38,456 nt of DNA from Chiloscyllium plagiosum (lineage: Eukaryota). Both the position numbers and the translations under genes were made by a program. Positions 3,274 through 38,456 of the stretch are shown here, in pieces (within the stretch, counting starts at the first letter, position 1; each line of letters begins with the position of its first letter). The notes beneath the pieces were generated by a model. It worked only from the letters and a program-made list of their open reading frames with translations. It made no database searches and was not told the DNA's origin. The stretch spans positions 92,676,540-92,714,995 of the forward strand of contig NC_057718.1 in NCBI RefSeq assembly GCF_004010195.1, given 5' to 3'.

Positions 3274-3938
3274 CTACCAGGTCCGGCCGTACAGCAGGCC
3301 AGGATTCACCATATTACCCGTGTAGTCTGCAGTAGCCGTGTCCATTTGAGACATGTTGGTTACCGAATTGTGGAGAGACGATGGATTTGGCGACACTTGG
3401 GCGAGATCTTGGGTCTGAGCGAGTGAATTCACTTGTTGATTCTGTTGCTGGGAGATGGTGCTGCTGGCGACTGGGAGGATCCCATTAGCGGCCTGTTGCT
3501 GCTGTGCTTGTTGGCTGGGGGTTGGGGTGCTGGAGCCGTTTTGACAGGGCTTGCCGTCTTTCACAAGCACTGGCACGGCCACCCTCCTGGGAGACTGCTG
3601 CTGTTGACACAAACTGTTCTCTTGCTGCATTTGTTGAGTAGCCTTGTCTTTGGCCTGACGTTTCATCTTGTAGCGGTGGTTTTGGAACCAGATCTTGACT
3701 TGTGTCGGGGTGAGGTGAATCATACTTGCTAAGTGTTCTCTCTCGGGAGCGGACAGGTACTTCTGCTGCTTGAAGCGTCGCTCCAGCTCGTAGACCTGGG
3801 CCTGAGAGAACAATACTCTTCTCTTCCTTCTTGGCGCTGCGTGTAAAGGTGCCATGGGCTTGGCCGAATCTGTCATTCCCGCTAAAGTCCCCATTCCGGA
3901 CATGTTCATCCCTGAAGATGTCCCCATGAATCGGGAGA
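3274..3938 (-). CDS. NKX2-4: NKX2-4 coding exon 2 (665 nt; homeodomain, NK2-SD, stop TAG)
   Basis: Acceptor atgtttgtttAG at 3940-3939; ORF 3274..3927 encodes [60 protein letters not shown]. Confidence 0.95.
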
Positions 3939-4855
3939 CTAAACAAACATTTCAAAGGGGGGAAAAAAATTCTGATTAAAAATGCTGGGAGGTAGAAATT
4001 TTACTCAGACTCATCAGTTACGTTATTAGAAAGCAGTGTTCTGTCATTCACACAATATTAATCATCCACATCCTATCTCTTTTAAATTCCCTGAACAAAA
4101 TTATACATAAATGATGTTAAGTAAACATTAATTGGTTTGATCATTCCATTCCTAAGTACTAACTGCACAAATATGTCACATTACAAACAAACTCGATTAT
4201 GCTGGCATGATAATTCTCTACGGGGCCTGACCTGCTCAGGGCGTTTGCGAAGTGAAACATTGTACAGTTGCCTTGCAAACATGCTCGGCTATCTGCTCAG
4301 GTTTCTTCTAAATAGGTCGTTTATTAGTCAGAGTAAGCGAATGAGATATTACCTCCCAATGAACATCTACATTAGGTTAATCAGACAGCTCTTTAAATGG
4401 ATCTATTTCAAAACCTCGGCCACCAAGCCCAGGCCGAAATCTGAGTGAAATGAGAGAGAACTTCTTTTTGAGGGAGTCTTACTTGTTGAATATCTGGGAT
4501 CCGGGTTCGTTCCGCCGTACCAGCCGCTCCCTGTAGCGCTGTTCCTCATGGTGTCCTGGTATGAAGGCAGTTCCCCCATGTTGCCAATGCTCCCGTTGCA
4601 GTAGCCTCCCATGGCCCCGTGTGAAAACTGGGAGACGCCGTGGGGCATATGGTAGGTGGTCGCTACCGTGGCGTTGTGTGCCATGGTGTGTTGCTGCATG
4701 CTGGACTGGGAGACCTGAGCTTGGCGGTAACCCCCCAGAGGAGGACCGAGATTGCCTGCGCCGTCCATGCCACCAAACTTCTTGTAGGTCTCCTCAATCG
4801 GGCTCAGGATGTCTGTCACTGAAAAAGGCGTTGTGTGTTTTGGGCTCAACGACAT
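3274..4855 (-). CDS. NKX2-4: Homeobox protein Nkx-2.4, spliced CDS join(4855..4483, 3938..3274), 1038 nt / 345 aa
   Basis: Two minus-strand ORFs join in phase 1 (ACA A|gtaag ... tttag|TC TCC CGA TTC ATG), giving PDPRYSTISRFMG. Contains the TN/eh1 motif TPFSVTDIL, an NK2 homeodomain with Tyr54 (WFQNHRY), the NK2-specific domain [17 protein letters not shown] and C-terminal [21 protein letters not shown] and PRYS favour NKX2-4 over NKX2-1 (MSMSPK, LEESYKKV, PRFP). Confidence 0.9.
3652..3831 (-). other. NK2-class homeobox (60 codons)
   Basis: Translation above; diagnostic Tyr54. Confidence 0.95.
3939..4482 (-). other. NKX2-4 intron (544 nt, GT-AG, phase 1)
   Basis: Donor and acceptor read directly; splicing restores the conserved ISRFMG peptide. 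Confidence 0.9.
4483..4855 (-). CDS. NKX2-4: NKX2-4 coding exon 1 (373 nt, TN/eh1 domain at ~4805-4831)
   Basis: ATG at 4855 in context aaaccATGT with an in-frame TAA two codons upstream; canonical donor GTAAG at 4482-4478. Confidence 0.92.
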
Positions 4856-4939
4856 GGTTTAGCGACAGAGCAGGTAAAACGGTTTGAGAGGATCTACCCG
4901 TGTGCTGCGCTCAGCTCTCCCTCTGTCGCTCCTCTTGTG

Positions 4940-8550: not shown

Positions 8551-8639
8551 AATGTGGAGGTGTTCGATTGGGGTGGACAAAGTTAAAAATCACACTACAC
8601 CAGGTTATAGTCCAAACTGGTGTTGTGTGGCTTTTAACT
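8551..8639. mobile_element. Penelope-like pLTR palindrome, family A, internally deleted
   Basis: Arms agttaaaaatcacactacaccag (8581-8603) / ctggtgttgtgtggcttttaact (8617-8639) match family A copies at 10310 and 23719; ribozyme part missing. Confidence 0.75.
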
Positions 8640-10309: not shown

Positions 10310-10503
10310 AAGATTTGGAGGTGCTGGTGTTGGACTGGGGTGTACAAAGTTAAAAATCATATAACATCAGGTATAGTCCAACAGGTTTATTTGGAAGCAC
10401 TAGCTTTCGGAGCGTCGCTCTTTTATCAGAAGCACCACTCCAAAAGCTAGTGCCTCATATAAACCTGTTGGACTATAACCTGGCGTGGTGTGATTTTTTT
10501 TTA
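10310..10503. mobile_element. Penelope-like pLTR palindrome, family A, with degenerate hammerhead; 10-bp TSD
   Basis: Inverted arms ~10352-10412 / 10438-10498; TSD ctaattattc at 10300-10309 and 10504-10513; minus-strand CUGAUAAAA-GAGCGACGCUCC-GAAAGCUA-GUG. Confidence 0.8.
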
Positions 10504-13660: not shown

Positions 13661-14945
13661 ATCATGGTGACTGAAGATGACCTGACCACAATCTTGCAAA
13701 ATGTTCTTGATTCTGGAACCACACCTAATGATTGGAAAATTGCATGTCGCCCTGTCTATATGAAGCATGGAGAATGGGGTGGTCTTGTGATGCAGTCGCC
13801 CCTGAGGTTAGAAGCTCTGGGTTCAGGTTCATGGCAGAGTCTGTTAGCTGTGGAAGGAGCATTAATTATGTGGTTCAACAGGCTGATTATCAACTCAGAA
13901 ATCCTTCCATTGCTTCCCCACTATTCCTTAAATAGGACGAAAAAGGTATGTGAAGATCTGCTTTCAAAAAAGGTAGAGGGAACCAGGAAATGCTACAATG
14001 GTTAGCCTGTTGTTGGGAAGTCATTGGACTCTAGAACTAGTGGTAGTCAGGGAATTAATGCACTGAAAACTTTCAGCTGATTAGAGAGAACCAACATGAA
14101 ATTGGAATGGGTAGTGCCTGATGAATCTGACAGAATTTTCTGAAGCGATGACTAAAGATAAAACAGGGGAATGTGTATGGATGTTATTGATATGGTCTTC
14201 CAGAACACATCTGATTTAACCTCTCATAAGCACTTGTTGGCTGAAGATGAAGCCCTGAAATTAATGATAAGTTAGTCGTGGTTAGAATATGGCTGAATGA
14301 TTAGTGTCAAGAGTGTGGTGCTGGAAAAGCACAGTATGTCAGGTAGTATCTGAGGAGCAGGAAAATCAACGTTTTGGGCAAAATCCCTTCATCAGGGCTT
14401 TTGTCCAAAACGTCGATTTTCCTGCTCCTCGGATGCTACCTGACCTGAATGGCAGCAAACCGAGTGTAAGCATTATGGCAGGTACTTGAATTGACAGAAT
14501 GTGGCTAATAGTGTCACATAAGGGTTTATGTTTATTAATGATTTTTATTAATAATTATCAGATTTATTAACAACTTAGATGATGCACATTTACCTACTTG
14601 TGACAATAACGCAAAAATAAGGTGCCATTGTAAATTGTGTAGATGAAAGCATAGGGGATATTGATTGATTAAGTGATGGATTTTAACCTAGGCTTCCACT
14701 TTACACATAAAATGGAAACAACAGGGTATTTTTTAAATGGTGTAATATTAGAAACAGTAGACGTTCAAAGGTATTTAAACAATCTAAGGTACATTATTAA
14801 AAAGGCTAGTAGAGTGCTTACCGTTATATCTAGAGGACTAGATTACAAGGGGGTCAATATTATGCTGCAGCTATTCAAAAGCCCTGTGTGTATCACACCT
14901 GGAACATTATGAGCAGTTCTAGGCACCACCTCTTAGTCAAGATAT
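13660..14945 (+). mobile_element. Old CR1 LINE ORF2 remnant interrupted by later insertions
   Basis: LTTILQNVLDSG..PNDWKIA; YFLNG.ILETVDVQR; IIKKASRVL..ISRGLDYK...IMLQLFK. Interrupted at ~13770-13960 and 14300-14444; probably continues at ~15560 and 16090. Confidence 0.7.
14300..14444. mobile_element. Penelope-like pLTR palindrome, family B, nested in CR1; 7-bp TSD
   Basis: Arms 14338-14388 / 14394-14444; TSD ctgaatg at 14293-14299 and 14445-14451; minus-strand CUGAUGA-A-GGGAUUUUGCCC-AAAACGUU (G12 mutated). Confidence 0.8.
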
Positions 14946-20109: not shown

Positions 20110-20665
20110 ACTAAGCTTTTTGACCAATAAAGAAAAGCATACCAAATGACTTCTTCACTATCCTATCTACCTGCGACTCTACTTTCAAGGAGCTATGAAC
20201 CTGCACTCCAAGGTCTCTTTGTTCAGCAACATGCCCTAGGACCTTACCATTAAGTGTATAAGTCCTGCTAAGATTTGCTTTCCCAAAATGCAACACCTCA
20301 CATTTATCTAAATTAAACGCCATCTGCCACTCCTCAGCCCATTGGGCCCATCTGATCAAGATCCCAGTTGTAACCTTCTTTGCTGTCCACAATTTTTTGG
20401 TGTCATTTGCAAACTTACTAAGTCCTCTTATGCTCACATCCAAATCAGTTGTATAAATAATGAAAAGTCGTGGACCCAGCACTGATCCTTGTGGCACTCC
20501 ACTGGTCAGTGGCCTCCAGTCTGAAAAACAACTCTTCACCATTACCCTTTGTCTTCTACCTTTGAGCCAATTCTGTATCCAAATGGCTAGTTCTCCCTGT
20601 ATTCCTGCGATCTAACCTTGCTAACCAATTTCCCATGGGGAACTTTGTCGAATGCCTTACTGAAA
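20110..20665 (-). mobile_element. CR1 LINE reverse transcriptase fragment
   Basis: SDWRPLTSGVPQGSVLGP.LF.IY, SKFANDTK, WQM.FN.DKCEVLHFG, QRDLGV.V. Confidence 0.92.
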
Positions 20666-23373: not shown

Positions 23374-23420
23374 TGATTTGGAGATGCCGGTGTTGGACCG
23401 GGGTGTTGGACTGGGGTACT
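23374..23420 (-). mobile_element. 47-bp family A tail-only insertion with 12-bp TSD
   Basis: tgatttggagatgccggtgttggac matches the end of the 23719 copy; TSD atcctttattct at 23362-23373 and 23421-23432; internal repeat ggtgttggacYgggg twice. Confidence 0.85.
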
Positions 23421-23718: not shown

Positions 23719-23925
23719 TGATTTGGAGATGCCGGTGTTGGACTGGGGTGTACAAAGTTAAAAATCACACAACACCAGGTTATAGTCCAACAGGTTTAAT
23801 TGGAAGCACACTTGCCTTTGGAGCACTGCTCCTTCATCAGGTGATAGGAAGGAGCGTCGCTCTGAAAGCTGGTGTGCTTCCAATTAAACCTGTTGGACTA
23901 TAACCTGGTGTTGTGTGATTTTTAA
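23719..23925. mobile_element. Penelope-like pLTR palindrome, family A, with hammerhead remnants; ~13-bp TSD
   Basis: Perfect 55-bp inverted arms 23757-23811 / 23872-23926; TSD catcattgtttta (23706-23718) vs catcatcgcttta (23926-23938); minus-strand CAC-CUGAUGA-A-GGAGC-AGU-GCUCC-AAAG (mutated GAAA). Confidence 0.85.
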
Positions 23926-24449
23926 CATCATCGCTTTAGTTTGAAATGAATTGAGTGAGTGATGTCCTGTAATACACATTCACCAAGCTGCAGCTCAAAG
24001 CCTTTCTCTTTATATCTATAAAGATTCACTTCGCTTGAATACACAATCCTTCCATGTAACTCAATCCTAAATTCTTTCCATAAAAGATATATTTGAAATT
24101 TTAAAAATGACAATAATAACAATGGAAATTTTTACCCCTTGCCCTGTTAATTTTACATCTGCCATGTAGTTTTATTATTGACAGGAGTAGGGGTGAAAGC
24201 AATGCTGTACATACTGTTGGTACTCAATGTTGTCTGTGCAAGGCAGAATTTATTCCACACGTGTCAGTGTTCTTATTATTACTGGCATTGTAATATTCGG
24301 TTAACCCTAATATACAATGCCTCTGGTTTGCTATTGTTTGAAGTGGAAACACTGAAATATTACTTAAATAGCAACTAAAGAAAACAAGCAGAGATTTGGT
24401 AAAGCATTTATAATCAGTTTTTTTTCTTGACTATTGTGGAGTAGTGCTA

Positions 24450-27013: not shown

Positions 27014-27335
27014 TCATAGAATCCTTACAATGTGGAAACAGGCCCTTTAGCTGAAGATTAACCTACCCAGACCAATTCCCCTACTACTCTACATTTACCT
27101 CTGCCTAATACATCTAACCTACACACCCCTGAAAACTATGGGCAATTTAGTATGACCAATTCACCTAATCTGCACAATTTTAGATTATGGGAGGAATCCA
27201 GAGCACCCGGATGAAACCCATGCAGACACAGGGAGAACATGCAAACTCCACACAGACAGTTGCCCAAGGTGGGGATCAAACTGGGCCCATGGCACTGTGA
27301 GGCAACAGTGCTAACCACTGAGCCACCATGCTGCC
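27014..27335 (-). mobile_element. HE1-type tRNA-derived V-SINE
   Basis: Head ggcagcatggtggctcagtggttagcactg (A box), V domain tgtgtggagtttgcatgttctccctgtgtctgcatgggtttc, CR1-like tail ggcctgtttccacattgtaaggattct. Confidence 0.88.
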
Positions 27336-28905
27336 ACAAAACTATGAAGGGGAAGTTTCACAGAGTAAAAGGGAATAAGCAGAGAAAGATGACTATCTGG
27401 AGGGCTTATTAAAAGCATTATGGTCAGCTAAATGTGCTACATTATGCTATGGTTGTATTTTAAGATATGAATTTGGACTCCAATTATATTAGTTTCAAGG
27501 CTACATTTGGCAAAGCAAAGAACATTAATTGTTCCAGCACTGCAAAGTACTTTAAAATCTTACCAGGCTTTTGAATTAAATTAACGAATGTCCTGAAAGT
27601 GATCTTTATATCTGGTAATCTGTTACAGTAATTGTGCAAATTGAAAATTAACTATGCATGAAGTAAGTATAACTGCATCACCATTCTTTTTTCCCCGATT
27701 GGGATGGAATATTTTGCACTATATATACACATCATGTTTGCTGCTTTTCTTTCAGTCGTTCAATTAGAGGGATAAATTTATTTGATAATAATTACCGAAT
27801 CAAAGGTGAAATATTATGAATGCTGAAAACCTGAAAGAAAAACAGAAAATGCTGGAAAGAAGGCCAGGCAGAATTTATTGAGATAGGAACAACATTCATA
27901 GACTGTTGCTTGAACTGATGGTTTAATGGTGAATTCATGTTTCTAAGTTAACCCCTAAAGGCAAATACTTTGTGAATTCTGTGCTTACAGTGGATCTATT
28001 TCTTAAAAATTGATTTGCTAGTGAATCTGACCTCCTCAAAATGAGGATATTTGCACCTTCTTTTTTGCTTTTGACTTAGAGACTGATTTGATGATGGAAG
28101 ATTTTACAAAGTGCAGTGCAGCACATATCAATGTACTGTGTATTACTTCATAATCTGCTAAGACTTTGACTCGCAACTTGCTCGTTTACCAATGCCAGCA
28201 AACTGGCAGAAAACAATGTATCTCAGCTAGGATTGTTCCTGTGTCACCTCACAACAGCCAGTTTAAAAGTGGAGCTGGCATTAGTCATGAGCCGGCTATT
28301 GGTATGTTATTCGGTGGCAGCTACATTACAAGAATAATAAATGTCATTATTGAATAGTAATTAAATTCAAATTCTTTAAATGTTTCAAAGGCTGGCCCAG
28401 GACCTATGTGAATATTGCATCAGCTCTTACTGCACACAATTTACTGGGGCCAGAAGTAGATGGCAGTGTGAAACTAGTTTTAAAATGTTTTAGGTTAAAG
28501 TTGCCCAAGCTAATGGATGGGGAACAATTGAATAGTCTTCCTTTGGTGAATCTCTCAGCCAAATTTTGTAGCGTTACATGGAGATATTACATCCAACTGT
28601 ACAGGTACTTCTGTCAGTACTTTTCATCAATGGCATTAACACATTAGTGTTGGATTTTGAAAAGAAGGCACAGATGCCTGTTATATTTAGCTCTGTAGTG
28701 GCATGAAAGGTCTTCAGTGATAAGTTAGTCTTGTTATATGTCACAGGCTTACGACACTCTACACTAACTACACACACATGTACACTTTCTCTCACACTCA
28801 CAGCCCCCAACCCAGACAGACACACACACAGACAGACACAAAGACCCACATGCACACATATATTTTGTGGGGTGAATTTGTACTTGTAGAGTTACATTGT
28901 ACTTT

Positions 28906-28974: not shown

Positions 28975-29057
28975 TTATCTAATTTTTTAGATTAGAATCA
29001 ATCTAAACATCATGGCACAGACAGAGAACACAGGGGGTTAACACCTTCAACATATTG

Positions 29058-29179
29058 GTAAACACAATGACTGCAGATGCTGGAAACCAGATTCTGGATC
29101 AGTGGTGCTGGAAGAGCACAGCAATTCAGGCAGCATCCGACGAGCAGCAAAATCGACGTTTCGGGCAAAAGCTCTTCAT
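29058..29179 (-). mobile_element. Family B pLTR insertion with 16-bp TSD, truncated inside the hammerhead core
   Basis: TSD caccttcaacatattg at 29042-29057 and 29180-29195; minus strand begins (g)AUGAA-GAGC-UUUU-GCCC-GAAACGUC. Confidence 0.88.
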
Positions 29180-29409
29180 CACCTTCAACATATTGTCCAG
29201 CGAACACCATTGTTAACAGCTAACCTGAGAATGCAACTTTTAAAAAAGGTTTTGTGATTTACACATGAAAGCAGTGAAACTGTCATGGTATTCGAACAGA
29301 TGAAAGACTCAACAGACAATCAAGGTATTTTTCAATGTATAATTTCAGTTACATCACACTGTAAACTTTTGTAATAAATTCTGTGCCTTACAATTGTGTC
29401 CTCCATAAT

Positions 29410-29444
29410 CACCTGATGAAGGAGCGGTTCCACGAAAGCTAGTG
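29410..29444 (+). ncRNA. Minimal type I hammerhead ribozyme motif, family A (core intact, stem II damaged)
   Basis: CAC-CUGAUGA-A-GGAGCGGUUCCAC-GAA-AGCU-A|GUG; stem I CAC/GUG, palindromic stem III AGCU. Confidence 0.6.
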
Positions 29445-30315
29445 CTTCCAATTAAACCTGTTGGACTATAACCTGGTGTTGTGCGATTTTTAACTTTGTT
29501 ATGTAGCAGTTATATTACACTTGATCATTTATTGATGACTTCATTCAGCAAGATAAGTTGAACCATTTAATTGCAGGCATCAGATATCCAATTGGAGTTT
29601 ATGTACTTCTGTGCAAAGCCCACATAAAATAATTGACATCAGCTCGTTCTAAAACTCATATCCCAGCTATGACCTAACAGAGTTGCTCTTCAGCAAAGCT
29701 TAACTATTGAAATTATGTGGAAGCCCATCAGCTCTGAAAGTTTGTCTTGAGATACTAACGTGTGGTCATTTTCAATGAGCTAGTCAGAAATTCCTCGGCT
29801 TTTATGTTTGTTATGATTTTCTTCTCAAAATTCCTGGAAATGGACAGAAAAGAGGCATTTCAGACAAATAGTTAATGTCTCTTGACAAAATTCCTCCAGT
29901 TCACACATAAGTGTGTGAATTGTTAATTAAATGACAGAAAAAGGAAGTGCAAGTTGATGTTAAAAAAAGTCTAGTTTTCCTACGGTATCTTCAAAGTTGT
30001 TTTAGTCAGCTATGACAAAAAAGAAATCAGAAACCCTTCACTGATTGAGAACAGGCCAGCCAGTCCTCTAGCTGTTCAGAGCTAAACTCAACCACTTTAG
30101 AATAGGCCAGTAATCTCTCGGGAATGCAAAGAGAGACCAAAGTCAATGCTCACATATAGTGAATCAAATTATTTAGCTGTATCAGTGAGGCCTACAGCAC
30201 TGAACTGCTTGCTTTCTTTCCAATACAACAATGCAGATCAGTTTTAGCATTCCAAAGCACTTTATAGGAATCTAATCAAACAAAACAAAATTGACACTAA
30301 GGCATTGAGGAAGAC

Positions 30316-30597: not shown

Positions 30598-30711
30598 ATT
30601 TTCACCCAATACATAATGCAGTGTTCAAATTATGGCAGAGAAATGTTTTAGTTTATTTCCATTTTGTTGAAGTATTGTTGCAGTTTTTAAAATCCAGGAG
30701 GAGGGAAGTAA

Positions 30712-30929
30712 GACCTGAAAATGTGTTGCTGGAAAAGCGCAGCAGGTCAGGCAGCATCCAAGGAGCAGGAGAATCGACGTTTCGGGCATAAACCCTTCTT
30801 CAGGAATGAAGGGCTTATGCCCGAAACATCGATTCTCCTGTTCCTTGGATGCTGCCTGACCTGCTGCGCTTTTCCAGCAACACATTTTCAGCTCTGATTT
30901 CCAGCATCTGCAGACTTCACTTTCTCCTC
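30712..30929. mobile_element. Penelope-like pLTR palindrome, family B; 12-bp TSD
   Basis: 84-bp inverted arms 30715-30798 / 30808-30891 with 3 mismatches and a 9-nt loop; 38-nt tail on one arm; TSD ggagggaagtaa at 30700-30711 and 30930-30941. Confidence 0.9.
30772..30807 (-). ncRNA. Minimal type I hammerhead ribozyme motif, family B, intact catalytic core
   Basis: AUUC-CUGAAGA-A-GGGU-UUAU-GCCC-GAA-ACGU-C|GAUU; all core nucleotides present, GUC triplet, predicted cut between 30776 and 30775. Stem I is weak; activity and transcription unproven. Confidence 0.7.
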
Positions 30930-32424
30930 GGAGGGAAGTAACAGCCTACTTTACACCTAATCTGAAAGTGATGAGCGCCAGAATTAACACTCTAATTAAC
31001 ACTTTACTACTTAGCACAATAGTAAAGGCATGGCACAGCCAATGGATGATTGGTACAATAGCAGCAATCATTATCATGTATTCTTGTCCTTGTTAAAATA
31101 AGTAATATTGAAAGTTTTTATGAATTATTTCTAGAATTTCAAAACGTTTTCTCATCTCATCTACAGAACTGTGACTCTGATTTGCGAACTATTTAGCTGG
31201 TTCCTCCTCACAAGCACTTTCCAGATTAGGCAATGAAAATGTGAAACAACCCTGAAAGACTTAAACATAGGTTTAAGTATTCAATGAATGTGCTTCTTAC
31301 TGGGGCAAATTGCCAAACAACTCAGCACTTTAGCACACAAACATAAACTATATTAGTAAATAATAAAATCGTGTGTCACGTAACTCTATCATTGTGAATG
31401 TGGAATTATCAGCAATGTTTGAAGACTGTCAACCATGTGAAGCTAGTTTACTTCAAGATACTTCAAGACAGAGCACACTTTAGATGAGCATATTTCAAAG
31501 ACATCTTTAATGTCTTAATAATATTTATTAAACAGTGTCAAATATATATTTTGTGCTTCATTAAAATCATATTTTCAGCGGTCCTCACGTTCCAAGGGAT
31601 TGTTCATTCTGTATTTTATACTCTTACAATTATGCCAGTATCTTGAGCAAATGCGTTTTTTTGGTCCCAACTGTTTCAGACACGATGATATCTCATTGTA
31701 TTTACTGCAGCTTCAGCTCTAAGCTACCTTAGGTAACCAGGAGAGCTGGACTCAGCTCCATTGTTGCTTTTCATCTTAAAAGCTTATTTGATTAGTCACT
31801 TGTGGCTTCAGAATTGTCTGGTCCTTAAGCAGAAGATGCCCTTGTTGTTCAGCACTTAAGGACCTTTTTCCCCTTCTCAAGACCATACAATGAAGTCTTC
31901 TCCTCGTCCTTGGATCTTTGAAAATAGGATTTCAACCGCAATTTGCTGTTTTAGTTTGAACTTTGAAAAGAAAAGGATAAATGTGAAAACCTAAATTCTT
32001 AAGTATTCATATTTTCAGTTTTACATAATCAATTTCTGTTTAACTAATCGAAATAACTGGAAGCAGAAAATAACATTTTGACGCATATTTCCTAGCATGC
32101 AGGTGCTAGTTTGCAGCAATCATTTATTTTTTAAACAATCTTTTTCATAATGCAACATTTTTGTAATTGTTCGTCACCAAGCGCACTGATGCTGGTATAT
32201 GGAATACTTATCATCATCAATACCTAAGGCAGGTTAATCAAGGTAAGATACAGAGTAAAGATTTTTCTGTTGCAGGAATGTGTATTCAGCTGCTCTGTCA
32301 AAGAGTACAGCAATCAAGATCATGCAACATTTTCTTGTTCCCTCATCAATAAGCCATGCAGCCTTTTCTGAGGGATATTATCACTTGATTACAAAGTGGC
32401 AGTATTTCTGTGCTGTGGCTCTAC

Positions 32425-32913
32425 ACACACTGGAAACTGGTCTTGAATTAAGAATTAAGAAATAGCAAGTTTAGATTAGATTAGATTCCCTACAGTGTGG
32501 AAACAAGCCCTTCGGCCCAACAGGTCCACAATGACCCTCCGAAGAGCAACCCACCCAGACCCATTTACCCCTGACTAATGTATCTAACACTATGGGCAAT
32601 TTAGCACGGCCAATTCACTGAACCTGTACATTTTTGGACTGTGGGAGGAAACCGGAGCACCCAGAGGGGACACACTGGAAACTGGTCTTGAATTAAGAAT
32701 TAAGAAATAGCAAGTTTAGATTAGATTAGATTCCCTACAGTGTGGAAACAAGCCCTTCGGCCCAACAGGTCCACAACGACCCTCTGAAGAGCAACCCACC
32801 CAGACCCATTTACCCCTGACTAATGTACCTAACACTATGGGCAATTTAGCATGGCCAATTCACTGAACCTGTACATTTTATGGATTGTGGGAGGAAACCG
32901 GAGTACCCAGAGG
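32425..32913 (+). repeat. ~245-bp tandem duplication (unique flank plus SINE 3' half)
   Basis: Unit 1 32425-32667, unit 2 32670-32913; about 6 substitutions and 1 indel by eye. Confidence 0.92.
32471..32667 (-). mobile_element. HE1-type V-SINE 3' half (duplicated copy)
   Basis: (TTAGA)n tail and body nearly identical to 32716-32913. Confidence 0.85.
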
Positions 32914-33036
32914 AACCCACGCAGACACGGGGAGAATTTGCAAACTCCACACAGACAGTCACCCAAAGTGGGAATCGAACCCAGGTCTCTGGCACTGTGA
33001 GGCAGCAGTGCTAACCACTGAGCCACCGTGCTGCCC
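32716..33036 (-). mobile_element. Full-length HE1-type tRNA-derived V-SINE
   Basis: A box tggctcagtgg, B box gggttcgattccc, V domain, (TCTAA)n tail. Confidence 0.92.
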
Positions 33037-33044
33037 CAATTACC

Positions 33045-34548
33045 CCAAATTACTAGTGGTAATTTTCCAAAATTTGCTGGACTCTGGAAAACACCAAATG
33101 TGAAATCACTGATTAAAAAGGGCAGTAAACAAAACATGGGGAATTATAGACTGGTTAGCTTAACTTCTGTAGTGGGGAAGGTGCTTGAGTCTATTATCAA
33201 CGAAGAAATATCAAGGCATCTTGATAGAAAATATCCCCTTGGGCAGACACAGCATGGGTTCATGAAGGGCAGGTCATGCTTCACTAATCTTTTGGAATTC
33301 TAAGAAGACATTACAAACATGGTGGACAATGGGAATCCAGTAGATGTGGTGTATCTAGATTTCCAATAAGCTTTTGACAAGGTGCCGCACAGAAGGCTGC
33401 TCATAAGATAAGGATGCACGGCATTACGGGTAAAGTATTAACATGGATAGAGGATTGGTTGACTAACAGTAAGCAAGGAGTGGGGATAAATGAGTGCTAT
33501 TCTGGTTAGCAATCAGTAACTAGTGGTGTGCTTCAGGGATCAGTGTTGGGACTATAATTATTCACAATTTACATAGAAATTTGGTGTTGGGAATCAGGCA
33601 TAGAGTGTCAAAGTTTGCAGGTGACACAAAGATGAGTGGCAGAGCAAAGTGTGCAGAGGACCGTGAAAATTTGTCGAGGCACATAGATATTTTAAGTGAA
33701 TGGGCAATGGTCTGGCATATGGAATACAATGTTGATAAATGTGAAGTTATCCATTTTGGTAGGAGTAACAGTAAAAAGGACTATTTCTTGAATGGTAAAA
33801 TGTTGCAGCATGCTGCTATGCAGATGGACCTGGGCGTCCTTGTGCATGAATCACAGAAGGTTGGTCTGCAGGTACAACAGGCAATTAGGAAGGCAAATGG
33901 AGTTTTGTCTTTCATTGCTAAAGGGATTGAGTTTAAAAGCAAGGGAGGTTATGTTGCAGTTGTATAGGATGCTGGTGAGGCTACACTTGGAGTATTGCAT
34001 GCAGGTTTGGTCTCCTTACTTGCAAAAGGATGTACTGGCAGTGAGGCAGTGTAGAGGAGGTTCACTGGGTTGATTCTGGATTTGAGGGGGTTGGCTTATG
34101 AAGACAGACTGAGTAGACTGGGATTATATTCATTGGAATTTAGAAGAATGAGGGGGGATCATATAGAAACATATAAAATTATGAAGGGAATAGATAAGAT
34201 GGACCTAGAGAGGAAGTTTCCACTGATAGGTGAAAGTAGAACAAGAGGGCTCAGCCTCAAAATTATGGGGAGCAGATTTGGGACTGAATGAGAAGGAACT
34301 TCTTCACCCAGAGGATTGTGAATCTATGGAATTCCCTGCCCAGTGAAGTAGTTGACATTACTTCAGAAAATGTTTTTGAAGCTAAGATAGATTTTGTTTT
34401 GAACAATAAAGAGATTAAGGGTTACGGTGAGATGGTGGGTAAGTGGTGCTGAGTCCATGAAAAGATCACCCATGATCTTATTGAATGGCGGAGCAGGCTT
34501 GAAGGGCCAGATGGCCTACTCTTGCTCCTAGTTCTTATGTTCTAAGTT
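33045..34548 (+). mobile_element. 5'-truncated CR1 LINE: RT domain to 3' tail, with stops and frameshifts
   Basis: KKGSK..GNYRLVSLTSVVGKVLESII, QHGFMKGRSC.TNLLEF, DVVYLDF..AFDKVPH, SKFAGDTK, LEYC.QVWSP, RMRGD.IETYKIMKG; tail cttatgttctaagtt. Confidence 0.95.
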
Positions 34549-35359: not shown

Positions 35360-36570
35360 TAGAACATAAAACATAGAACATTACAGCGCAGTATAGGCCC
35401 TTCGCCCCTCGATGTTGCATCGAATTGTGGAACCAATCTGAAGCCCATCTATCCTACACTATTCCATGTTCATCCTTATGTCTATCCAATGACTATTTAA
35501 ATGCCTTTAAAGTTAGTGAGTCTACAACTGTTGCAGGCAGTGCGTTCCACACCCCTACTACTCTCTGAGGAAAGAAAATGCCTCTGACATCTGTCCTATA
35601 TCTATCACCCCTCAATTTAAAGCTATGTCTTCTCATGCTCGCCATCACCATCTGAGGAAAAAGGCTTGCCCTGTCCACCCTACCTAACCCTCTGATTATC
35701 TTGTATGTCTCAATTATGTCACCTCTTAACCTTCTTCTCTCTGACGAAAACAGCCTCAAGTCCCTCAAACTTTCCTCACAAGACCTTCCCTCCATACCAG
35801 GCAACATCCTAATAAATCTCCTCTGAACCCTCTCCAAAGCTTCCACAGCCTTCCTATAATGCAGTGACCAGAACTGTATGCAGTACTCCAAGTGCAGCTG
35901 CACCAGCTGCAGCATGACCTCATGGCTCTGAAACTCAATCCCTCTCCCAATAAAAGCTAACACATTGTATGCCTTCGTAACAACCCTACCACCTTGGGTG
36001 GTAACTTTAAGGGATCAATGTACATGGACACCGAGATCTCTCTGCTCATGCACACTACCAAACATCTTACCATTAGCCCTGTACTCTTTATTCCTGTTGA
36101 ACCTTCCAAAGTGAATCACCTCACACTTTTCCACATTAAACTCCATTTACCACCTCTCAGACCAGCTTTGTAGCTTATCTATGTCACTCTGTAACTTGCA
36201 ACATCCTTCAGCACTATCCACAACTCCACCGACCTTAATGTCATCCACACATTTACTAACCCATCTTTCTCTGCCCTCATCTAGATCATTTATAAAAATG
36301 ACAACCAGCAGTGGCTCCAAAACAGATCCTTGCAGTACATCACTAGTAACTGAACTCCAGGATGAACATTTCCCATAACCACTACCCTCTGTCTTCTTTC
36401 AGCTAGCCAATCCAAACTGCAAAATCATGCTCAATCCCATGCCTCCGTAATTTGTGCAATAGCCTACTGTATGGAACCTTTTAAAATGCCTTATTGAAAC
36501 CCATATGCACCACATCAACCGCTTTACCCTCATCCACCTGTTTGGTCACCAAATCAAAGAACTCAATAAG
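35360..36570 (-). mobile_element. CR1 LINE RT-to-3' fragment
   Basis: (CATAGAA)n tail; ORF 35493..35963 [54 protein letters not shown] at the far end. Confidence 0.93.
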
Positions 36571-36571
36571 G

Positions 36572-37188
36572 TGAATTGAATTGAATTTATCATCATGTGT
36601 ACCGAGGCACAGTGAAAAGCTCTGTCTTGCGAGCAGTACAGGCAGATCACAGAGTTAAGTAGCATAGCTAAGTAAATGATAGGTAAGCAGCGGCAAAAAC
36701 AAAAACACAGGTACAGGCAAATGTTTAGAGTTTGTGAGTCCATTCAGTATTCTAACAACAGTAGGGTAGAAACTGTTTTGAAACTGGCTGGTGCGTGTGT
36801 TCAGGCTTCTGTAACTTCTCCCCTATGGTAGAAATTGTAGAGGTTGCCAGGATGGGATGGATCTTTGAGAATGCTGGCGGCCTTTACTTGACAGCGGGCC
36901 TGATAAATGGATTCTGTAGATGGGAGGTTGGTCTTTGTGATTCTCCAGGCCGAGTTCACCACTCTCTGTAACCATCTTCGATATTGAAAGGTACAGTTGC
37001 CATACCAGGTAGTGATACATCCAGACAAAATGTTCTCCTTGGCACACCTATAAAAGTTGGCAAGGGTATTCACTGTCATGCCAAATTTCCTCCGCTGCCT
37101 GAAGAAGAAGAGACAATGTTGGGCCTTTGTAACCAGTGGGTCCACATGAAGAGTCCAAGAAAGCTTGTTGTGGATGACCACTCCCAGG
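36572..37188 (-). mobile_element. Rex1/Babar-clade LINE 3' fragment
   Basis: LGVVI.NKLSW..H...L..KAQ..LFF.R..RKFG......NFYRCA.E.ILSGCITTWYGNC....LQRVV; (ATTCA)n tail at ~36572-36587. Confidence 0.85.
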
Positions 37189-37246
37189 AGGGTGTTGGTG
37201 GACACCGCGTGCTAATCCTCTTTTTTTCAGAGCCTCGGACACTCCA

Positions 37247-38456
37247 GTTTTTTCTTTCTTCTTTTTTCCTGTGTTGTGTGTGTGCAAATGTCGGACACAG
37301 TGAAAAACAACAGTTGTTTAAATCTTTATTAATATTCCACCACCAGGAAGAAAGGAAACACCTGAGTGGCCAGTTTCAAGCAGAGCCCTTCTAACCAAAG
37401 GGTATTGCTGCGTGATTAAAAAAGTGAAAGGGAGGGCAGGGATTAAATCAAAATAGAGTTGGAGGGGGCAATAAAACACTCCACTCCCTGCGGTGCCCAC
37501 CTCTCCCTGAATAACTCCAGGGTGTTGGAGAAGGAGCACGCGGTGTCCACCAAGGACACCCGGGCTCTAATGTAACCGCGGAAGAGGGGCAGGCAGTCGG
37601 CTCTAACGACCCCCTCCACGGCCCGCTGCCTGAACCTGTTTATGGCCAGTTTCGCCAGGCCCAGGAGCAGACCCACGAGGAGGTCTTCAGACCTGCCCTC
37701 CCTCCTCCATACCGGGTGCCCGAAGATCAGGAGCGTGGGACAAGTGCAACCAAAAGCAGAGGAGGAGGTTTTTAAGAAAATCAAAAAGGGAGTGCAAATG
37801 CCCACACCCAATATATACGTGGTCCACGGACTCCACAGCGCCACAGAACAAACAGTTGGGCTGGGGGTCCATGAACCACCGCAATCTGTGGTTGCAGGGG
37901 ACCGCTGTGTGCAGCACCCTCCACCCCAGATCCCCGAGAAAAAAGGGGGAGGACTCCCGCATAGAGAGCCCTCCACTGGGGATCCCCACTGCCCGGTGGC
38001 AAATGGGCATGCCAAGGCGTCTCCAGACGATGGATGAGGGAGAAGAGGTGGATGGTATGCAGCCGCAGCCTATACAGCCTTTTTACAGCCTTAAAAAAAA
38101 AGGGACAGAATTATAATTCCGGAGGTGGCTCAGGTTGTGGGGCACAGGCTCCCGTGGGAAGTACGGGACCTTGGGGCCAATGTGAAATTCCATCCAGGCT
38201 GGGGTGAGCGCGGACGGGATCCCACCGCACACCTGAGCGTCCTCCAATTGGTGCACTACGTCGGGTCCGAGCACCGCCGTTTTAAGGATGGCGGTGGCCA
38301 CGTACTGGACGTCTACCGCTGCCCTGCCTGCTATGTCCTGCGGCAGCCTCCAGCCCAGGCCCCCGGCACCCAGTACGTCCCCGACCCTGGTCACCCTCGC
38401 CACCGCGGCCCTCCCCTCCGACAGCCACTCGAACCCGCGAGTACGGAGGTGCGGAT
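37247..38456 (-). mobile_element. Tx1-like (L1 group) retrotransposon, ORF2 C-terminus and 3' UTR, frameshifted; continues beyond window
   Basis: DLGWRVLH.AVPCN..L....P.CLFCGAVESVDHVYI.C zinc knuckle; LLLGLAKLAI...R; DCLPLFRGYIRARVSL; AATAAA at 37330-37325 and A-rich tract ~37270-37247; GC- and CpG-rich. Confidence 0.85.

What the first reader, a model, noticed from the sequence alone, without database searches (positions are those of the whole stretch)
30712..30929. Retrotransposed palindrome carrying an intact minimal hammerhead ribozyme at its hairpin apex
Seen: 84-bp inverted arms (3 mismatches, 9-nt loop), a 38-nt tail on one arm only, and a 12-bp TSD. On the minus strand: AUUC-CUGAAGA-A-GGGU-UUAU-GCCC-GAA-ACGU-C|GAUU, i.e. 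every hammerhead core residue, an extra A after A9, a 4-bp stem II and a self-complementary ACGU in place of stem III. Known: Penelope-like retroelements carry minimal type I hammerheads in their pLTRs that are thought to cleave as dimers via a palindromic stem III, and they often leave inverted pLTRs. An extra A between A9 and G10.1 is tolerated in the CChMVd viroid hammerhead. Inference: a young shark PLE-derived or non-autonomous ribozyme element. Any read-through transcript would form long dsRNA that masks its own ribozyme, a possible self-silencing arrangement.
Basis: partly seen in the sequence, partly recalled or inferred. Interest (0 to 1): 0.75.

Follow-up and report, generated by a model that had tools for sequence, protein, structure and literature searches.

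The report
Head-to-head Penelope retroelement end stub
A real, recent 218-base hairpin-shaped insertion that looks like two head-to-head copies of the end of a Penelope-like jumping gene, one copy still carrying the family's usual minimal hammerhead motif: an ordinary member of a very abundant repeat family of a kind already described.

Summary
Observation confirmed: 84-bp arms with 3 mismatches, 9-nt loop, 38-nt one-sided tail, exact 12-bp TSD, and a complete minimal type I hammerhead core on the minus strand. It is not a one-off. The window holds 3 copies of this family and 5 of a second hammerhead-bearing family, with 5 palindromes in all. Public DNA runs lay over 60,000 contigs on it. A related organism seems to lack it at this site, so it is young. 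Inverted truncated copy plus 30-40-nt tail plus TSD, the extra A after A9 and the ACGU stem III are all published traits of Penelope-like elements (PLEs). No PLE ORF was found or linked here, and 'shark' was not tested. The ribozyme is probably idle here: stem I is only 2 bp, both arms keep the uncut site, related minimal motifs are inactive as monomers, and sibling copies decay at core CpGs. Hairpin masking is thermodynamically certain if the locus is read through, but one palindrome has no ribozyme and no flank RNA was seen, so adaptive self-silencing is unsupported. The scan has already noted this class many times in this genome.

The parts
30700..30711 (+). Left copy of 12-bp target-site duplication
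   Evidence: Exact direct repeat of 30930-30941
30712..30808 (-). Left arm: tail-less copy of the element end, sense on minus, starting 5 nt upstream of the hammerhead core; supplies the 9-nt hairpin loop
   Evidence: Alignment of arms; loose-end consensus of family reads shows that the letters just upstream of C3 are native to the family (table 7)
30771..30808 (-). Minimal type I hammerhead motif (all core letters, extra A between 9 and 10.1, 4-bp stem II with a private U.G, palindromic ACGU for stem III, 2-bp stem I); predicted cut 30776/30775
   Evidence: Numbering and pair probabilities; only strict-descriptor hit in the window, 2 hits in 500 shuffles; no Rfam match
30799..30807 (.). 9-nt loop at the head-to-head junction; on the minus strand it holds 2.4-2.1 and C3-N7
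30808..30891 (+). Right arm: second copy, sense on plus, truncated at about G8 (lacks C3-G5) and with a CpG-type change at 16.2, so not a ribozyme
   Evidence: 60-67% of family depth or reads show G at 30828
30892..30929 (+). 35-38-nt tail on the right arm only; family reads go loose at 30926-30928
   Evidence: loose ends; 30-40-bp one-sided tail described for PLEs
30930..30941 (+). Right copy of the target-site duplication
   Evidence: Organism B single-copy contig aligns from exactly 30930 outward and runs on for 132 letters unlike the element (record 24)
14314..14447 (.). Older palindromic copy of the same family, G12 changed in both arms, no tail, no clear TSD
   Evidence: 79% identity, E 4e-31
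29058..29179 (-). Solo arm of the same family (a different subfamily), lacking C3, flanked by an exact 16-bp direct repeat
   Evidence: 82% identity, E 4e-25; repeat at 29042 and 29180

Best explanation
A dead-on-arrival insertion of the terminal module (pLTR head plus tail) of an endonuclease-bearing Penelope-like retrotransposon. Steps: (1) the element's RT/GIY-YIG protein binds element RNA that has not been cut by its hammerhead [shown: both arms run through the C17 site; protein inferred]. (2) Both target strands are nicked 12 nt apart [TSD shown; likely empty site in organism B; nicking inferred]. (3) Reverse transcription starts inside the RNA at one of two sites 35-38 nt apart, which gives one arm with tail and one without [geometry shown; mechanism taken from the Anolis PLE in vitro work]. 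(4) Synthesis stops within a few bases of the hammerhead's 5' edge, probably the RNA's start [boundary shown for this copy and suggested by family loose ends; start site inferred]. (5) The two cDNA ends join head to head over 1-3 bases of microhomology [inferred]. The hammerhead is the family's inherited motif, whole on one arm because this copy is young. It is probably idle at this locus: its dimer partner is truncated and antisense, stem I is marginal, and any read-through RNA buries G8 onward in the hairpin.
For: Architecture equals the published PLE pattern: inverted 5'-truncated copy plus a 30-40-bp tail at one end (PMC8557442) and 8-10-bp TSDs around inverted pLTRs, head-to-head (PMC3846280). 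Tail = distance between two RT start sites, both strands cut and extended, HHR cleavage not needed, unprocessed RNA the main substrate (PMC11167929). Motif traits (extra base 9/10.1, G10.1-C11.1, palindromic 15.2-16.2, solo or opposite-strand pairs, monomer inactive) match PMC4209133. The window shows the whole series: tail only, solo arm, palindrome without hammerhead, palindromes with one; 5 of 8 copies have a 10-16-bp flanking direct repeat with at most 2 mismatches. 63,884 and 61,675 contigs of two DNA runs lie on the stretch; the unique flank has depth 11-13. Subfamily variation sits at N7 and loop II, while G12, C11.1 and C17 show CpG-type decay (G12 changed in 11% of DNA depth and 323 of 1,281 RNA reads, about the level of a flanking CpG at 10%). 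P(stem II) in a read-through RNA is 2e-13.
Against: No Rfam hammerhead match. TSDs of 10-16 bp are longer than the 8-10 bp in the rotifer passages read. 3 of 8 window copies have no clear boundary TSD. The letters of the presumed empty site were not displayed.
Confidence: 0.85

Rival explanations
1. A self-standing non-autonomous palindromic element (MITE-like or retrozyme-like) that is copied as a whole hairpin unit and uses its hammerhead for RNA processing.
For: Very high copy number and contigs from other loci that span a similar apex (records 9, 17, 18); animal retrozymes are reported as non-autonomous PLE derivatives (preprint 10.64898/2026.07.22.740005).
Against: The 5 palindromes in the window have different junctions, arm lengths and tail sides; solo-arm and tail-only copies carry their own TSDs; there is no tandem array, which retrozymes require by the preprint's definition; both arms keep the uncut site.
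Confidence: 0.07
2. One reading: an active ribozyme kept under control by its own antisense arm, a selected self-silencing device or regulatory RNA at this locus.
For: All core letters present; masking is certain if transcribed (hairpin about -175 kcal/mol); Penelope inverted repeats give siRNA in Drosophila; family RNA is present on both strands in the raw RNA run.
Against: Insertion apparently absent in a relative only about 2.7% diverged; 0 RNA reads on 30950-31300 and no pile-up of molecule ends (one polyA single-cell run, about 2% read, so weak); min-HHR monomers showed no cleavage in vitro; only 1 strict-descriptor hit among the window's copies; one palindrome (8555-8638) has no hammerhead at all.
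Confidence: 0.05
3. Assembly or library fold-back artefact, or a chance hammerhead-like string in an unrelated palindrome.
For: Palindromes are a known source of assembly error (general knowledge); no listed contig spans the whole stretch; no Rfam support.
Against: Three arm mismatches, a TSD and a tail are not made by fold-back chimeras; similar apices appear in short-read contigs of two organisms; a second family has the same core with different, base-paired stems; 2 hits in 500 shuffles.
Confidence: 0.03

Closest known systems
Insertion units of endonuclease-positive Penelope-like elements: pLTR, adjacent inverted 5'-truncated copy, 30-40-bp tail, TSD (Arkhipova et al. 2013, PMC3846280; Craig et al. 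2021, PMC8557442)
   Same: Head-to-head inverted copies, one-sided 35-38-nt tail, TSD, 5' truncation of one arm.
   Different: Reduced to about 95-130 nt per arm with no ORF; TSD 12 bp against 8-10 bp in the rotifer examples; far more abundant.
Minimal hammerheads (min-HHR) of metazoan PLEs (Cervera and De la Pena 2014, PMC4209133)
   Same: Type I core, extra base between 9 and 10.1, G10.1-C11.1, palindromic 15.2-16.2, short helix I, mostly solo or opposite-strand copies.
   Different: Stem II of 4 bp (7-8 bp in Schistosoma, 6 bp in D. virilis); stem I of only 2 bp plus a mismatch. No shark motif found in the 2 of 3 supplementary files that could be searched.
Poseidon PLE of Anolis carolinensis in vitro (Frangieh et al. 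2024, PMC11167929)
   Same: Tail length, uncut hammerhead in the inserted copy, AT-rich surroundings, both-strand activity that could give head-to-head arms.
   Different: There the ORF starts inside the hammerhead; here the ATG in the core of the right arm runs into a stop after 17 codons (read from the sequence), so clade assignment is open.
Animal non-LTR retrozymes (preprint 10.64898/2026.07.22.740005; Cervera and De la Pena 2020 seen as search listing only)
   Same: Non-coding, type I hammerhead, PLE-related; reported in the one chondrichthyan sampled.
   Different: Retrozymes are head-to-tail tandems with a hammerhead per unit; this is head-to-head with one whole core.

Membership tests
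Penelope-like element (EN+) | Single ORF with telomerase-like RT and GIY-YIG endonuclease linked to this terminal repeat | tested here: inconclusive
   No such ORF in the window; whole genome not held; collection scans found no family locus; spurious-frame protein searches empty.
Penelope-like element (EN+) | Inverted 5'-truncated copy joined head to head | tested here: met
   5 palindromes among 8 copies of two families.
Penelope-like element (EN+) | 30-40-bp tail on one end only | tested here: met
   35-38 nt; family loose ends at 30926-30928.
Penelope-like element (EN+) | Target-site duplication | tested here: met
   Exact 12 bp; likely empty site in organism B begins exactly at 30930, letters not shown.
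Penelope-like element (EN+) | Partial-tandem direct pLTRs flanking the ORF | not testable with these tools
   Needs the assembly; none held.
PLE minimal hammerhead (min-HHR) | All conserved core letters, extra base 9/10.1, G10.1-C11.1, palindromic 15.2-16.2 | tested here: met
   against the list.
PLE minimal hammerhead (min-HHR) | Helix I of about 4-5 bp | tested here: not met
   2 bp + U.U + 1 bp, pair probability under 0.1; a 2-bp helix I is reported for D. virilis Penelope, so this is within the known range of variants.
PLE minimal hammerhead (min-HHR) | Variation between copies concentrated outside the core | tested here: inconclusive
   Non-CpG variants at N7 and loop II; core CpGs (C11.1, G12, C17) decay like a flanking CpG; 39 rows shown, 9 hidden, reads biased to 85% or more identity.
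PLE minimal hammerhead (min-HHR) | Self-cleavage as a dimer or with protein help | not testable with these tools
   Bench assay; no pile-up of RNA ends in one polyA run.
Rfam hammerhead families | Score at or near the gathering threshold of a hammerhead model | tested here: not met
   None among 16 matches at E<=10; 0 matches at gathering score.
Non-LTR retrozyme | Head-to-tail tandem with a complete hammerhead in at least two units | tested here: not met
   Head-to-head, one complete core.

The most novel reading that the evidence does not exclude
This copy may record twin priming by a dimeric PLE particle on two different RNA molecules. The loop belongs to the tail-less arm, the reverse of the three tailed palindromes of the second family here, so simple in-place fold-back of one cDNA cannot make it without later trimming. 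The arms also differ at 30765/30841 by an allele common in the family (58-61% C), and possibly at N7, where a U on the right arm's template would give a 3-base annealing junction. If so, thousands of such young palindromes form a natural record of the unresolved second-strand step of PLE integration, and one hammerhead on each of two RNAs in one particle would explain why a dimer-only ribozyme is kept.
Probability: 0.2. Interest if true: 0.55.

Novelty: new member of a known kind. Interest (0 to 1): 0.2.

Why it matters
As one insertion it matters little: it is one of at least thousands, and probably 10^4-10^5, of similar stubs. The population is the useful part. Young head-to-head PLE stubs with exact TSDs, two start sites and varied junctions allow a count-based test of how PLEs make their inverted ends (cDNA fold-back, antisense self-priming or twin priming), which the papers read still call undefined. 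They may also be a large source of hairpin RNA in this animal. A likely presence/absence difference between two close species makes this copy a usable marker.

Tried and rejected
Whole-genome BLAST for copies and PLE ORFs: no genome held. Rfam: no hammerhead; best matches were miRNA models far below gathering score, driven by the hairpin. Pattern scans for family loci with flanks: 0 in viral contigs, 0 in both metagenome scans; a relaxed viral scan gave 1 locus with a core-like string and unrelated flanks, not followed further. Protein searches with the open minus-strand frame over the element, longer and near lengths: no hit, so that frame is treated as spurious. No RNA holder was listed for the locus; this is no evidence either way. 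Motif searches in supplements found nothing (2 of 3 files of PMC4209133; 3 files of PMC11167929; figures are not held). A full-text search for the motif letters gave 1 unrelated paper. Searches for shark plus Penelope or hammerhead listed no paper describing these stubs; the library lacks most subscription papers and Repbase/Dfam could not be checked. Rejected: that the 5' strand of stem I is a junction artefact (family loose ends show it is native); MITE/TIR reading (arms abut, tail is one-sided, solo and tail-only copies have their own TSDs); tRNA-derived SINE (no tRNA gene). Considered and left as inference: the 5' boundary resembles an initiator motif (consensus recalled; an Inr-like site in a pLTR is reported), but some family copies extend at least 30 nt further upstream.

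Full report
Observation. The structure is as described. Arms 30715-30798 and 30808-30891 are 84 bp with 3 mismatches around a 9-nt loop; 38 nt follow on the right only; an exact 12-bp direct repeat flanks the whole. On the minus strand the hammerhead core runs from C3 at 30803 to C17 at 30776, with an extra A after A9, a 4-bp stem II and ACGU in place of stem III. A strict descriptor finds only this site in the window and 2 sites in total over 500 shuffled windows. Rfam gives no hammerhead match. Stem I is weak: two pairs, a U.U mismatch, one more pair, with probability below 0.1.

Surroundings. The window holds an NKX2-1-like gene (homeodomain hit to thyroid transcription factor 1, E 3e-37) about 26 kb away on the minus strand, and scattered RT-related fragments. 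Two more copies of the family lie at 14314-14447 and about 29058-29179. A second family with the same core but other stems (stem II GGAGC/GCUCC, AGCU for stem III, CAC/GUG stem I) has 5 copies: 8555-8638, 10312-10500, 23376-23420, 23720-23926 and 29400-29499. Together the 8 copies include a tail-only insert, 2 solo arms and 5 palindromes, one of which is cut too deep to hold any hammerhead. 5 of 8 have a 10-16-bp flanking direct repeat with at most 2 mismatches; the other 3 have none that is clear. The five junctions differ.

Public reads. I laid 4 of the 24 listed runs on 30770-31300 at 85% identity. DNA runs of organisms A and B gave 63,884 and 61,675 contigs. Summed word depth is 1.5-27 million on the element from 30770 to 30931 against 11-13 on most of the unique flank. 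The tool warns this is no copy number; allowing for up to 31-fold overcounting it still implies thousands to tens of thousands of copies, with an uncorrected ceiling near 10^5-10^6. In organism B a 1,693-letter single-copy contig aligns from exactly 30930 outward and runs on for 132 letters unlike the element, which is what an empty site would give; its letters were not shown. The flank differs by 10 letters in 365, about 2.7%. In organism A a contig joins 26 letters of tail to the flank, short of the tool's 31-letter bridging rule. Contigs from other loci span a similar apex in both organisms (records 9, 17, 18). Loose ends show that the letters just upstream of C3 are native and that agreement falls off about 8 nt upstream, though some copies go further; at the other side reads go loose at 30926-30928, the tail end. 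None of the 24 loose-end rows shown (838 hidden) lies at the predicted cut, and no pile-up of molecule ends was found. Variants: N7 is A or U, loop II varies, the stem II wobble and the right-arm change at 16.2 are private, and core CpGs decay (G12 in 11% of DNA depth and 323 of 1,281 RNA reads; a flanking CpG 10%). Family RNA is present in both orientations, but 30950-31300 has 0 reads in the one raw run (polyA single-cell, about 2% read), which is weak evidence.

Literature. Cervera and De la Pena 2014 (PMC4209133; parts 1-2 of 4 read, 2 of 3 supplement files searched) define PLE minimal hammerheads with the extra base, G10.1-C11.1 and palindromic 15.2-16.2, note opposite-strand pairs and solo truncated copies, and report no monomer cleavage and weak dimer cleavage. 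Craig et al. 2021 (PMC8557442; passages) describe the inverted 5'-truncated copy and a 30-40-bp tail at either end. Arkhipova et al. 2013 (PMC3846280; passages and Discussion) show inverted pLTRs with 8-10-bp TSDs, palindromic head-to-head junctions and an Inr-like site, and propose self-priming. Frangieh et al. 2024 (PMC11167929; parts 1-2 of 4, 3 supplement files searched) show that the tail is the gap between two internal RT start sites, that both strands are cut and extended, and that the hammerhead needs protein and is dispensable for insertion. A 2013 review (PMC3681739; passages) reports siRNA from inverted Penelope copies that did not silence efficiently. A whale shark preprint (10.1101/443036; passages) reports expanded PLEs. 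A 2026 preprint on retrozymes (part 1 of 5 and passages; supplements closed, so its chondrichthyan family could not be compared) ties them to PLEs. Passages of PMC8969392, PMC12910113 and PMC6155905 added only general background.

Mechanism. Shown: TSD, two arms ending 35-38 nt apart, both running through the uncut site, a junction at the 5' edge of the motif, recurrence with varied junctions. Inferred: a PLE protein acting in trans, internal priming at two sites, a transcript start just upstream of the core, joining by microhomology. One detail is informative. The loop letters belong to the left, tail-less arm, whereas in the three tailed palindromes of the second family they belong to the tailed arm. 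A cDNA that folds back in place cannot give its second arm a tail that the first lacks, so this copy needs priming from both nicks or trimming of a full palindrome. The arms agree at 17 of 19 family-variable sites checked. One of the two differences is a common family allele, a weak hint of two templates; three mismatches are also about what the age would give.

Function at this locus. In a minus-strand read-through RNA the antisense arm comes first and pairs everything from G8 onward; stem II has probability 2e-13. So masking is real physics, but it follows from the way the insertion is built and occurs whether or not a ribozyme is present. Nothing here shows transcription, cleavage or selection.

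Earlier scan notes. 106 of 163 notes on this genome fit the word Penelope, and several describe the same palindromic hammerhead stubs on other DNA. They are unchecked AI notes and are not counted as support. They agree with the reading I had logged before the first look-up, and I tested the architecture myself in this window.

Verdict. Real, young, and ordinary: a new member of a known kind. PLE membership rests on architecture and motif, not on a linked ORF. Interest 0.2; the population, not this copy, could test how PLEs make inverted ends.

Noticed in passing
window 8555-8638, 10312-10500, 23376-23420, 23720-23926, 29400-29499: Second family of end stubs with its own minimal hammerhead (AGCU stem III, CAC/GUG stem I): three palindromes with tail, one tail-only insert with a 12-bp direct repeat, one solo arm that keeps about 45 nt of upstream sequence.
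   Followed up: partly
window 23376-23420: The tail-only insert has an internal duplication of about 13 bases.
   Followed up: no
window 14314-14447: Both arms share two changes (G12 to A, and a non-CpG G to A downstream), suggesting an already dead template or conversion between arms.
   Followed up: no
window 3274-4858, minus strand: NKX2-1-like homeobox gene in two coding stretches; the hammerhead stubs lie 4-26 kb upstream of it.
   Followed up: partly
window 30704-30711 and 30895-30902: The last 8 bases of the target duplication are complementary at 6 of 8 positions to the start of the tail, a possible priming microhomology at the proximal start site.
   Followed up: no
window 32425-32913: Tandem duplication of about 245 bp at 97% identity next to SINE-like sequence (also at 27132-27339) and an RT fragment.
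   Followed up: no
window 20114-20611, 33022-33964, 35496-36014, 36804-37211, 37446-38082: Decayed LINE-like coding fragments (RVT_1 and zf-RVT hits for three frames; family names not tested).
   Followed up: no
window 30926 (run X21): 175 RNA reads leave the tail with one shared flank (agreement 0.88), so one other copy of the family sits in a well-expressed polyA transcript.
   Followed up: no
L001 4995-5035: A hammerhead-core-like string with ACGUC in a viral contig, found by the relaxed pattern; flanks unrelated to this family.
   Followed up: no
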